46,150 nt of DNA from Enterobacteria phage phi80, in sequence record NC_021190.1. One strand, written 5' to 3'. Within the stretch, counting starts at the first letter, position 1, and each line of letters begins with the position of its first letter. Position numbers: made by a program. Positions 21,001-24,000 of the stretch are shown here, one piece after another.

Positions 21001-24000
21001 ATCGTTGTGAATAACTCAACCCGGCCTCCGACAATCTACACCATTAATGCTTATTCGGCGTGCAGGTTTGACGGGGCCAATACGAGGATAAACGCAGGGG
21101 GGACCTCCACTGGCACAGGCTCTCCGGGAGGGGTAACGAATACTGGAATTTCCTTAACCGCGATAAATACAGCGGCCTATGACTGATTGATCGTTTTGGG
21201 CGATCAATAACTGATAATTGATCTATCAAACCAATTATACCCACCTCTTTCATGTTGGTATTGTCTAAGTTCATGAATACCTCTGGATACTATCAAAATG
21301 AGAAAACTGATTATCTGCATGGCAGGCGCTGTCATGCTTACAGGATGCGCTGGCGTAATTGAGAAACAGGAACCAGTTTGCAGCGGCACTGCAATCGTTG
21401 GCGGTCAGGAAACTACGGTTCAGATTTACGGTGTGCGTAAACAAAACAACCAGACGCAGTACCGGGCTGGATATCCTTTCAGCTGGCGCTGGGTAAGTGC
21501 GAATACATTTACCGAAACAACCTGCAAATAACCCACTACGCTTAAACATAAACCTCGCTCCGGCGGGGTTTTTTTATTGCCTGGAGAAAATATGCTTTAT
21601 AACACCGGCACCATCGCCATTAATAGAAATACCGCCACCGGGACGGGTACAAACTGGACGGCACCGGCCAGCCAGGTTCGCGCTGGCCAGACAATTATCG
21701 TGATGTCTAACCCGGTGCAACTGTTCCAGATTTCATCCGTGAACAGCGCCACGTCAATGACGGTTACGCCTGCCGCTTCCCCGGCGCTGAGCGGCCAGAA
21801 GTACGGCATTCTGGTATCAGATAATATCTCGGTTGATGGGCTGGCGCAGGCCATGTCGCAGCTTATCAAGGAGTATGACGAGAATATTGGTGCGTGGGAG
21901 ACGTTCGCCACAACCTCAGCCAACCAGAACATTACCGTTACGATCAATGGCACCAGTTTATCAATCCCGGCTCTTGGGAAATTACTGCAGAAGGGGAGCA
22001 ACGGAGCTTTGCCGGTTAATCAAGGTGGTACTGGCGCACCCTCGGCATGGGAAGCCACAAAAAATCTAAAAACATTAAGGACGATGGAGCGAAGATTTGG
22101 ACCAGGTGATGAGCCAAGAGATGGCGGCTGGTCCAATACTATTGGTTTTGTGGTGGGGCAAACGTCCACAGGGGCAAATGGAGCGTTTGTTGATTTTACA
22201 AGTTTCGATCAGTCGGCCAGGCTACAGATCATTGGTTTTTATTCTGACTCTCAAAACCACAATGGTGTCGGGTATAATCTGTGGCATCCCAACTTACAAA
22301 CATGGTATCCATTCACAACGCTCAGGGATAACAGAAACACAACCGTAGATTCGAACGGTTTCATAAAGGTTGCATCTCCCATTGTAAAGATATTCAGGGA
22401 TGGTAGCTATGAAACGAATGAAGAGTCGGAGGGAATTGATGTTACCCACATAAATACAGGTGAGTATTTGATAGCAGGTTGCACCGGCCTTAATGCAGAT
22501 GCAGCATGGGGAGGGATCGATGGTGGATTTGAAATTCCGGTAGACAGGAACAAGCTCGCGCGCATCTGGCTTGATTATGAAGTGAATGCTGATGGCTCTG
22601 TTCTGGTAAAAACATATCACCGTACACACCCGAAAGCGCCTGAGTTTGCAAGAAACGAAATCAACGGGTTAACTAATGGCGAGCCAGTAGACATTCCTGC
22701 AGATTCTTTTGTTTCCGTACGTGTTGAAATGCCACCAGATAGTATCTGGAACCAGCGACAGAATGATGCTTTGGAAGCAGACGTGCAGAAACCTACCTCA
22801 TAAGTAAAACCGCCGCAAGTCGTATGCAAGAACGTGCGGCGGCAGGCTGGCGTTCGTTCGATAGTGCGAGTATTGAATGATTTCCAGCCGCTGCGGATTC
22901 TACATATGCAATATGACAAAACAATGCTCTTATTCTGAAACCAACCACATATCGGACTCTTCAAACATTTCCTCCAGCATGCGGTTCAGTTTTTCCCGAT
23001 CGCTTTTGCTGGCATCGCTGTTTAAGCCGTTCGCCTGCATCGGCTTAACCTTCACTTCTGCATCCGGAAAGATCCGGTGCACTCGCTTTGTTAACTCATT
23101 CAGAATTATTTCTCTGGCACCTGTTAATCCTTCAACATTCCGTTTGTCGTACACCAACTCAACGAACATACCGCCTCCAAAGCAACAATGATTTTGCACG
23201 CAATTTATACTGTTTATTTATACAGTGTCAACGGTTGGGCACGTAGCTTTTTAAGGAAGGTTTTTGGGGCATGTATGGGGCATAAATGCCAGTTTTGGGG
23301 CATGGTTGGGACATTTTAACTCATATGAACTTAACCGAATTTCATATGGAGGCGTCTTATAATGCACTGATTAACCTAAAGAAAACACATGCTCTTGGGC
23401 GTTCTTTAGTGATTTTTAAAATGCCCGCGTCACGCAGTTAAAGTGGCGGGCATACTCTTCAAGGCTGGTGATACCCAACCGCACCCATTTAGGATGCGAC
23501 CATTGCGGCAGACCGATGTAAATCATAACGCGTGAAGGATCTCTTCCACGCTACGCACACGGGCGATGCGCGGGTAGATATGATTAATGCTGTTATTGTG
23601 TTGCTCGGCGCTGGCGGCACTACAGGCGTCTTCGGCAATCACCAGATTAAAGCCAAGTTCCCAGGCATTGCGGGCGGTGGATTCAACACCGATATTGGTC
23701 GAGATCCCACATAACACAATTGTATCGATACCTCGGCGGCGTAACCGCACCTCGACCATATTGCAGGATTTTACCGTTGGGTAATTTCATCCATCCATCA
23801 CCACTGGCAAAAAAAGCCATATCCGGTATCTGATTTTCCCCTGTTCCCACATCCCGTTTTGCCGCTTCTCCCAAACCAACCTTTCAAATATTTTTCTGAA
23901 TCAGGTGATATTTCGCCTCTTCTCCTGTTTTTACAACAGGAGAAGCACTCATGATTTACGGTTATGCCCGAGTATCAACAAACCACCAGGACACTGAATT

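What the first reader, a model, noticed from the sequence alone, without database searches (positions are those of the whole stretch)
22930..23227. SOS-controlled DinI-like gene carried by the phage
A DinI-family ORF on the minus strand has a canonical LexA box (CTGT-N8-ACAG) about 40 bp upstream of its start. DinI modulates RecA filament activity, so a phage-borne LexA-regulated copy could tune SOS signalling and hence prophage induction.
Basis: partly seen in the sequence, partly recalled or inferred. Interest (0 to 1): 0.5.

Follow-up and report, generated by a model that had tools for sequence, protein, structure and literature searches.

The report
LexA-repressed DinI gene of phage phi80
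This is a small, stand-alone DinI-family gene with a strong LexA (SOS) operator across its promoter, sitting near the attachment site of what is almost certainly coliphage phi80; the feature is real, but it is a common and already described kind of prophage cargo gene.

Summary
A 79-aa DinI-family ORF lies on the minus strand (ATG 23169, stop 22930). Its Pfam DinI match has E = 4e-23. It is preceded by the promoter TTGACA-16-TATAAA, and the spacer of that promoter is filled by the LexA box CACTGTATAAATAAACAGTA (23227-23208), which ends 40 nt before the ATG. The bare CTGT-N8-ACAG motif is not significant (0.53 expected per window). The full 20-mer is significant: no shuffle gave a hit, and it is the only strong SOS box in the window. 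In 61 of 70 related viral loci a box is kept at this position, even though their upstream sequences are otherwise unrelated. A hairpin with a short U tract follows the gene, and no conserved partner ORF lies downstream.

The window matches the phi80 prophage of strain XL10-Gold at 99.995% identity. Phage mEp237 carries the same module. Relatives occur in HK140, HK225, mEp390 and phiKO2, and the phiKO2 record annotates a LexA site. LexA-controlled dinI homologues are also documented in the Gifsy prophages, and Salmonella msgA is induced by DNA damage.

From memory, and not checked here, Rotman et al. 2012 deleted this very gene under the name dinL. The most likely mechanism is that DNA damage removes LexA, and the protein then binds RecA filaments and adjusts RecA-dependent cleavage of the phage's S24-type CI repressor.

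Verdict: real, ordinary and already known.

The parts
22930..23169 (-). DinI-family coding sequence, 79 aa plus stop (MFVELVYDKRNVEGL...EESDMWLVSE), of the MsgA/phage type
   Evidence: Sequence. Pfam PF06183 E = 4.1e-23. PDB 1GHH (E. coli DinI) E = 2.2e-7, aligned through to the C-terminal WxVSE. PHROG 189 'RecA filament binding protein DinI' E = 7e-22. RefSeq annotates the same 240-nt CDS as 'DinI family protein'.
23174..23178 (-). Shine-Dalgarno GGAGG, 4 nt before the ATG
   Evidence: Read directly from the sequence. Kept in the phi80-like class of upstream regions.
23208..23227 (-). LexA operator (SOS box) CACTGTATAAATAAACAGTA; core CTGT-N8-ACAG at 23210-23225
   Evidence: Three mismatches to the 20-mer consensus, with 0 of 100 shuffles matching. 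Top weight-matrix score in the window by 14.5 bits. An approximate heterology index of 3.0-4.5 falls within the range of the E. coli boxes used to build the matrix. A box is kept in 61 of 70 related loci.
23204..23231 (-). Sigma-70 promoter TTGACA (23231-23226), 16-nt spacer, TATAAA (23209-23204); the LexA box covers the whole spacer and the inner edges of both hexamers
   Evidence: Sequence. The consensus scan finds the -35 hexamer with an alternative -10. The same feature is annotated as a promoter in mEp237.
22805..22843 (-). GC-rich hairpin (GCCGCCGCA...UGCGGCGG) followed by UUUU, lying between the converging dinI and tail-fibre genes; probably a terminator for both
   Evidence: RNA fold. 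The strict terminator scan did not report it because its loop is longer than 8 nt. The equivalent position in phiKO2 is annotated 'putative bidirectional' terminator.
23416..23759 (-). Context and origin: fragments of the bacterial genes yecD (last 78 codons) and yecE (first 36 codons) directly upstream of the dinI promoter region
   Evidence: Pfam Isochorismatase, profile positions 107-175 of 175. Colinear with the yecD - yecE' - DinI junction of E. coli chromosomes that carry a prophage in yecE.
34591..35355 (-). Context: phage CI repressor with a Peptidase_S24 self-cleavage domain, the presumed RecA-dependent step that a DinI protein could modulate
   Evidence: Pfam Peptidase_S24 E = 1e-19 and Phage_CI_repr E = 2.5e-10. 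The phi80 repressor is listed among RecA-cleaved repressors in PMC6590174.

Best explanation
This is a stand-alone (single-gene) cargo gene of phage phi80 that encodes a DinI-family protein and is repressed by host LexA. It lies between the tail-fibre gene and attP. In a lysogen, LexA sits on the operator that fills the promoter spacer and blocks RNA polymerase. DNA damage produces RecA filaments, LexA cleaves itself, and the gene is then transcribed from its own near-consensus promoter and ends at the hairpin it shares with the tail-fibre gene. The 79-aa product is expected to behave like E. coli DinI. It would bind RecA-ssDNA filaments through its acidic C-terminal helix and, depending on dose, either stabilise them or dampen their co-protease activity. 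This would shift how readily the phage's S24-type CI repressor, LexA and UmuD are cleaved. Shown here: family membership, the promoter/operator anatomy, its statistical significance, its conservation, and the single-gene organisation. Inferred: LexA binding in vivo, RecA binding by this paralogue, and any effect on induction.
For: DinI family. A low-confidence AlphaFold model has a strand-helix-strand-helix order of elements, and its only notable PDB match is DinI 1GHH. Operator. The operator overlaps a promoter matching 11 of 12 consensus positions. Footprint: 61 of 70 relatives keep CTGT-N8-ACAG in at least four unrelated upstream contexts, and most of the rest have relaxed or truncated boxes. 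Single gene: a hairpin follows it, no conserved downstream ORF is found in relatives, and the 51-aa overlapping ORF has no Pfam or PHROG match. Homology with mEp237 ends at the dinI stop codon. Precedents: phiKO2 gp22 is 59% identical and has an annotated LexA site, a bidirectional terminator, and a converging tail gene, and it is reported to be LexA-regulated (PMC7556043). Salmonella msgA has a LexA box and is induced 3.4-fold by nalidixic acid, and the Gifsy dinI homologues are induced 4.6- to 23-fold (PMC8072944). [quoted passage not shown] Own knowledge, not verified here: the abstract of Rotman et al. 2012 (J Bacteriol 194:6802) calls this 'the only SOS-controlled gene, dinL' of Lula/phi80. 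It reports that dinL-mutant lysogens release fewer phage in response to endogenous damage but respond normally to external damage.
Against: The protein is a paralogue of chromosomal DinI, not an orthologue. It is about 32% identical to DinI, and it scores 42 bits on the NCBIfam DinI equivalog model against a cut-off of 111. Its activity could therefore differ. Non-polar deletions of the Gifsy dinI homologues had no significant effect on induction. The structure model is of low confidence (pLDDT 65).
Confidence: 0.8

Rival explanations
1. The gene is a leftover of a LexA-controlled antirepressor module of the 186 Tum, PSP3 or Gifsy dinI-gfoA-irsA type. The antirepressor has been lost, so the gene is still SOS-regulated but has no role in phi80 induction.
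For: In those systems a DinI homologue always travels with a LexA-controlled antirepressor, and deleting the dinI part alone had no significant effect. The PHROG 189 profile is 151 positions long, and this protein matches only positions 71-150, which is the DinI half of Tum-like proteins. The module clearly arrived by illegitimate recombination, since it came with a piece of host DNA.
Against: phi80 has an S24 self-cleaving CI and does not need an antirepressor. The stand-alone arrangement, with an intact ORF at 92-100% protein identity and an intact operator, recurs in the 80 retained loci out of at least 591 matching viral stretches. Such recurrence argues for selection on the solo gene. From memory, a dinL deletion in phi80 did have a phenotype.
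Confidence: 0.1
2. The gene is a lysogenic-conversion gene that serves the host rather than the phage switch. An extra SOS-induced DinI dose would limit UmuD cleavage and mutagenesis, or aid survival under stress. This would fit the 'virulence protein MsgA' label given to close relatives.
For: Close relatives are annotated MsgA. The gene sits in the typical position for cargo genes, next to the attachment site, and has its own promoter and terminator. High DinI levels inhibit UmuD cleavage.
Against: The MsgA label is an annotation and not a tested function for this protein. This reading does not exclude an effect on induction, so the two are not mutually exclusive. Nothing here tests it.
Confidence: 0.08
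3. The LexA-box match is a coincidence in an AT-rich promoter, and the gene is constitutive or silent.
For: The minimal CTGT-N8-ACAG motif is expected 0.53 times per window by chance.
Against: No shuffle reproduces the 20-mer match. It exceeds every other site in the window by 14.5 bits. The CTGT and ACAG arms are kept while the central 8 nt and the flanks vary across relatives. Homologous sites are annotated or shown to respond to DNA damage in phiKO2 and Salmonella.
Confidence: 0.02

Closest known systems
dinL of phage Lula/phi80 (Rotman, Kouzminova, Plunkett, Kuzminov 2012, J Bacteriol 194:6802), recalled from memory because the paper is not held
   Same: Very probably the same gene. Window positions 2600-24639 are 99.995% identical to the phi80 prophage beside yciI/tonB in XL10-Gold, the window length equals my recollection of the phi80 genome size (46,150 bp), and this is the only strong SOS box in the genome.
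   Different: No difference is known. The identification rests on my memory of that paper's abstract.
Klebsiella phage phiKO2 gp22 (DinI-like)
   Same: 59% protein identity over 77 residues. It has an annotated LexA binding site at its promoter and a putative bidirectional terminator, and it converges on the tail gene. It is reported to be LexA-regulated.
   Different: In phiKO2 the operator also serves a divergent UmuD-like gene (gp23). phi80 has no such partner. phiKO2 is a linear-plasmid prophage.
E. coli chromosomal DinI (PDB 1GHH, 7YWA)
   Same: Same Pfam family and the same length class. Its acidic C-terminal helix also ends in W-x-VSE, and it is LexA-repressed. From memory, the E. coli dinI operator is ACCTGTATAAATAACCAGTA, with the same central ATAAATAA.
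   Different: Only about 32% identity. The protein fails the NCBIfam equivalog cut-off (42 bits against 111), so it is a paralogue. RecA binding has not been tested for this subfamily as far as I found.
Gifsy-1/-2/-3 dinI homologues and the 186 Tum / PSP3 modules (Lemire et al. 2011, PMC3121763)
   Same: Prophage-borne DinI domain under direct LexA control, with the operator at the promoter.
   Different: In those systems DinI is fused to, or co-transcribed with, an antirepressor that drives induction of a non-cleavable repressor. Here the gene stands alone and the repressor is an S24 self-cleaving CI.
Salmonella MsgA
   Same: Close sequence relatives are annotated as MsgA. msgA has a LexA box and is induced 3.4-fold by nalidixic acid.
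   Different: msgA is chromosomal, and its box is weaker (published heterology index 11.88). Its 'virulence' label has no known mechanistic link to RecA.

Membership tests
DinI family (Pfam PF06183) | Significant full-length match to the family profile | tested here: met
   E = 4.1e-23, 81.9 bits against a cut-off of 24.2, profile positions 3-63 of 63. PHROG 189 E = 7e-22.
DinI family (Pfam PF06183) | Small (about 80 aa) alpha/beta protein with an acidic C-terminal helix ending in W-x-VSE, as in the solved DinI structure | tested here: met
   The phmmer alignment to 1GHH covers residues 16-79 and includes EEMFEESDMWLVSE against QETWESADDWFVSE. The AlphaFold model has strands at 2-8 and 38-44 and helices at 16-33 and 55-71, and its top PDB match is 1GHH. 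The model is of low confidence (pLDDT 65, TM 0.47), so the fold evidence is only supportive.
DinI family (Pfam PF06183) | Binds RecA nucleoprotein filaments and modulates co-protease activity | not testable with these tools
   This needs purified protein. It is inferred from homology only.
Orthologue of chromosomal DinI (NCBIfam NF007893 equivalog) | Score above the curated equivalog cut-off | tested here: not met
   42 bits against a cut-off of 111. It is a paralogue of the phage/MsgA type and not the chromosomal gene.
SOS (LexA) regulon member | LexA box close to the consensus, positioned to occlude the promoter | tested here: met
   Three mismatches in 20 positions and 0 of 100 shuffles matching. 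25.5 bits, within the range of the E. coli boxes used for the matrix. It fills the spacer between -35 and -10.
SOS (LexA) regulon member | Operator conserved in relatives | tested here: met
   61 of 70 loci have an exact CTGT-N8-ACAG 32-75 nt from the ATG, in at least four unrelated upstream contexts.
SOS (LexA) regulon member | LexA-dependent, damage-inducible transcription | not testable with these tools
   Documented only for relatives: Salmonella msgA and the Gifsy dinI homologues, and phiKO2.
LexA-controlled antirepressor module (186 Tum, Gifsy dinI-gfoA-irsA) | An antirepressor domain fused to the DinI homologue, or an antirepressor ORF co-transcribed with it | tested here: not met
   The protein matches only the DinI half of the PHROG 189 profile (positions 71-150 of 151). 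A hairpin lies 87 nt after the stop codon. The only overlapping ORF (51 aa) has no family match and is not conserved.
LexA-controlled antirepressor module (186 Tum, Gifsy dinI-gfoA-irsA) | Cognate repressor lacks a self-cleavage domain | tested here: not met
   The CI at 34591-35355 carries Peptidase_S24.

The most novel reading that the evidence does not exclude
The phage/MsgA-type DinI paralogue may not simply copy DinI. It might bias RecA filaments towards cleavage of the phage CI rather than LexA, or stabilise short-lived filaments at spontaneous lesions. Either action would help explain the exceptionally high spontaneous induction of phi80/Lula lysogens, and the recurrence of this solo gene at prophage ends.
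Probability: 0.15. Interest if true: 0.45.

Novelty: already known. Interest (0 to 1): 0.12.

Why it matters
A LexA-gated RecA modulator carried by a prophage adds a second input to the lysis-lysogeny switch that depends on damage. This may help explain why phi80 (Lula) lysogens shed so much phage and contaminate laboratory strains. However, the gene, its operator and the idea are already in public annotation and in the literature. The value of this check is to confirm the call and correct its details, not to report something new.

Tried and rejected
1. Longer 89-aa ORF from GTG 23199 (also used in the mEp237 record). Rejected because it starts about 5 nt after the -10 hexamer and has no ribosome-binding site. 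Relatives share the protein only from MFVELVYD onward.

2. Antirepressor downstream of dinI, as in the Gifsy prophages. The 51-aa ORF at 22793-22948 has no Pfam or PHROG match, runs through the hairpin, and is not conserved in mEp237 or other loci. Rejected.

3. dinI inside an invertible segment. An 18-nt inverted repeat (22597-22614 and 23926-23943) lies in the tail-fibre gene and just upstream of the serine recombinase gene. On inspection only 9 nt match exactly, the left copy has no dyad symmetry, and the reading frame after the right copy stops after 13 codons. Rejected as a working switch. The right copy is probably a relic crossover site.

4. Fetching Rotman et al. 2012 by DOI, PMC id and PubMed id, and searching for 'dinL'. 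The paper is not held and no held paper discusses the gene. That evidence therefore remains from memory.

5. Structure prediction from the single sequence gave only pLDDT 65. The Foldseek top hit was DinI, but with E = 8e-3. I treated this as supportive and not independent evidence.

6. Megablast of the gene plus promoter against E. coli genomes found only 23 genomes. This understates the family's spread, which shows up at protein level, with at least 591 viral stretches.

Full report
**What is in the sequence**

On the minus strand there is a compact transcription unit. It consists of:
- a -35 hexamer, TTGACA, at 23231-23226;
- a 16-nt spacer;
- a -10 hexamer, TATAAA, at 23209-23204;
- a ribosome-binding site, GGAGG, at 23178-23174;
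- a start codon, ATG, at 23169;
- a 79-codon ORF ending in TAA at 22932-22930;
- a GC-rich hairpin 87 nt further on (about 22843-22809), followed by UUUU.

The hairpin lies directly against the stop codon of the converging tail-fibre gene (21577-22803, plus strand; Pfam Phage_tail_C_2). The ORF lister extends the frame to a GTG at 23199. That start lies about 5 nt after the -10 hexamer. Relatives share the protein only from MFVELVYD onward, while their upstream DNA is unrelated. The 79-aa form, which RefSeq also annotates, is therefore the real one.

**The protein**

- It matches Pfam DinI (PF06183) over the whole profile, with E = 4.1e-23 and 81.9 bits against a cut-off of 24.2.
- It matches PHROG 189, 'RecA filament binding protein DinI'.
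- By sequence alone it matches the solved E. coli DinI structure 1GHH, with E = 2.2e-7. The alignment runs to the last residue and keeps the acidic C-terminal helix and the W-x-VSE ending.
- A single-sequence AlphaFold model is of low confidence (pLDDT 65). It has strands at 2-8 and 38-44 and helices at 16-33 and 55-71, and its only notable PDB match is 1GHH.
- It is not the orthologue of chromosomal DinI. It scores 42 bits on the NCBIfam equivalog model, whose cut-off is 111, and identity to DinI is about 32%.
- It belongs to the phage/MsgA subgroup, and close relatives are labelled 'virulence protein MsgA' or 'DinI' in phage records.
- On PHROG 189 it covers only profile positions 71-150 of 151. 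This is the DinI half of the longer Tum-like proteins.

**The LexA box**

It would be expected 0.53 times by chance, so on its own it proves little. The full site is much better. CACTGTATAAATAAACAGTA (23227-23208) differs from the 20-mer consensus at three positions, and none of 100 shuffles produced any site that good.

I built a weight matrix from 20 E. coli SOS boxes recalled from the literature. This is my own knowledge, so the matrix is approximate. With it:
- this site scores 25.5 bits, higher than 18 of the 20 training boxes;
- the next best position in the 46-kb window scores 11.0;
- the best of 200 shuffled windows scores 21.7.

An approximate heterology index of 3.0-4.5 places it among the good operators in that set. 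It is therefore the only credible SOS box in this genome. It fills the promoter spacer exactly and overlaps the inner edges of both hexamers, which is the standard geometry for repression by occlusion.

**Conservation**

A scan of viral contigs found at least 591 stretches that encode close relatives of this protein. The 80 loci kept are 92-100% identical, and many lie within 2 kb of a contig (prophage) end. Of the 70 loci with enough upstream sequence, 61 have an exact CTGT-N8-ACAG 32-75 nt from the ATG. These fall into at least four upstream sequence classes that are otherwise unalignable, and some have two boxes. Several of the remaining nine carry relaxed versions (CTGT-N8-CCAG or CTGG-N8-ACAG) or a box cut through by a rearrangement. 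Within the phi80-like class the arms are kept while the central 8 nt vary (ATAAATAA, ATAAAAGA, ATGGATAA, ACAAATAA). A LexA operator is expected to vary in just this way.

No conserved ORF follows the gene in any class. The 51-aa ORF that overlaps its 3' end has no family match. The unit is therefore a solo gene.

**Identity of the element**

Window 2600-24639 is 99.995% identical to a prophage beside yciI/tonB/trp in E. coli XL10-Gold. From my own knowledge, this is the classical phi80 attachment site, and 46,150 bp is the published phi80 genome length. The homology ends at about 24639, which places attP there, 1.4 kb from dinI. An integrase gene follows at 24766-26016. In the prophage the gene therefore sits near one end, the usual place for cargo genes.

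Phage mEp237 carries the same module at 99.3% identity. In that record the promoter is annotated, and the homology stops at the dinI stop codon.

**How it most likely works**

- *Shown:* a DinI-family protein whose promoter is covered by a strong, conserved LexA operator. The phage repressor (34591-35355) has a Peptidase_S24 self-cleavage domain.
- *From the literature:* RecA stimulates cleavage of the phi80 repressor. [quoted passage not shown]
- *Inferred:* after DNA damage LexA is cleaved and the gene is expressed. Its product then binds RecA filaments and shifts the rate or duration of CI cleavage, and of LexA and UmuD cleavage.
- *From memory, not checked:* the 2012 phi80 genome paper (Rotman et al., J Bacteriol 194:6802) calls this gene dinL, 'the only SOS-controlled gene' of the phage. 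It reports that dinL mutants release fewer phage in response to endogenous damage but respond normally to external damage. This would fit a role in stabilising filaments. I could not open that paper, and no held paper mentions dinL.

**Rival explanations**

- *Relic of an antirepressor module.* In 186, PSP3 and the Gifsy prophages a DinI homologue is fused to, or co-transcribed with, a LexA-controlled antirepressor. Deleting the Gifsy dinI alone had no significant effect (PMC3121763). Here there is no antirepressor and the repressor is self-cleaving. The solo arrangement recurs with an intact ORF and operator, which argues for selection on the gene itself.
- *Host benefit.* A role in damping mutagenesis or aiding stress survival, as the MsgA label hints, cannot be excluded. 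It is compatible with the main model.
- *Chance.* A chance operator is excluded by the statistics and the footprint.

**Comparison with what is known**

- phiKO2 gp22 is 59% identical. Its record annotates a LexA binding site at its promoter, a putative bidirectional terminator, and a converging tail gene. It is reported to be LexA-regulated (PMC7556043).
- Salmonella msgA has a LexA box and is induced 3.4-fold by nalidixic acid. The Gifsy dinI homologues are induced 4.6- to 23-fold (PMC8072944).
- Relatives are present in HK140, HK225, mEp390 and several recent coliphage isolates.

The finding is therefore a correct reading of an already described feature. I score interest at 0.12. The only open point of some interest is biochemical: whether this paralogue acts on RecA in the same way as DinI.

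**Side observations**

- The 340 bp upstream of the dinI promoter region are bacterial. They consist of the last 78 codons of yecD and the first 36 codons of yecE. This DNA is colinear with the junction found in E. coli chromosomes that carry a prophage inserted in yecE, where the same DinI gene is the last prophage gene. Stx phages integrated at yecE show the same ending. The module therefore seems to have entered the phi80/mEp237 lineage from the end of a yecE prophage, together with a piece of host flank.
- Between the yecE fragment and the promoter lie three direct copies of (C/T)ATGCCCCA (23265-23304). These could be old integrase arm sites.
- Further on there is a palindrome next to a serine recombinase gene, together with a 45-codon fragment of a tail-fibre variable region. 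This looks like the remains of an invertible tail-fibre switch. I tested the idea that dinI lies inside a working invertible segment and rejected it.

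Noticed in passing
window 23416-23759 (minus strand): There is bacterial DNA inside the phage: the last 78 codons of yecD (isochorismatase family) and the first 36 codons of yecE. 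It is colinear with the yecD - yecE' - DinI junction of E. coli chromosomes that carry a prophage in yecE. This suggests the dinI module was captured, with host flank, from the end of a yecE-integrated prophage. mEp237 has the same fossil.
   Followed up: partly
window 23265-23304 (minus strand): Three direct copies of (C/T)ATGCCCCA lie within 40 bp, between the yecE fragment and the dinI promoter. They are kept in the phi80-like class of related loci. They may be arm-type integrase binding sites of the ancestral yecE attachment arm. The motif is not enriched across the window as a whole; only this local cluster stands out.
   Followed up: partly
window 23760-24469: A serine recombinase (invertase-like) gene lies at 23951-24469. 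It encodes 172 aa, and its C-terminal HTH_7 match falls below the Pfam cut-off and is incomplete. It is preceded by the palindrome TTCTCCTGTT-GTAAA-AACAGGAGAA (about 23916-23941). On the other strand there is a roughly 45-codon fragment resembling the start of a tail-fibre variable region ([19 protein letters not shown]...[13 protein letters not shown]), which is cut off by the yecD fragment. This looks like the relic of an invertible tail-fibre switch. No convincing partner site was found in the present tail-fibre gene.
   Followed up: partly
window 33588-34457 (minus strand): A 289-aa protein with the DUF7946 and DUF7947 domains is encoded directly downstream of the cI repressor gene on the same strand. 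A gene in this position may be expressed in the lysogen, so it could be an exclusion or defence gene. Its function is unknown.
   Followed up: no
window about 24639: Identity with the XL10-Gold prophage (99.995% from 2600) ends here, next to host yciI. This marks the attP crossover point just upstream of the integrase gene (24766-26016). The window itself is arranged like a packaged genome, from one cohesive end to the other, with the terminase gene at the left end.
   Followed up: partly
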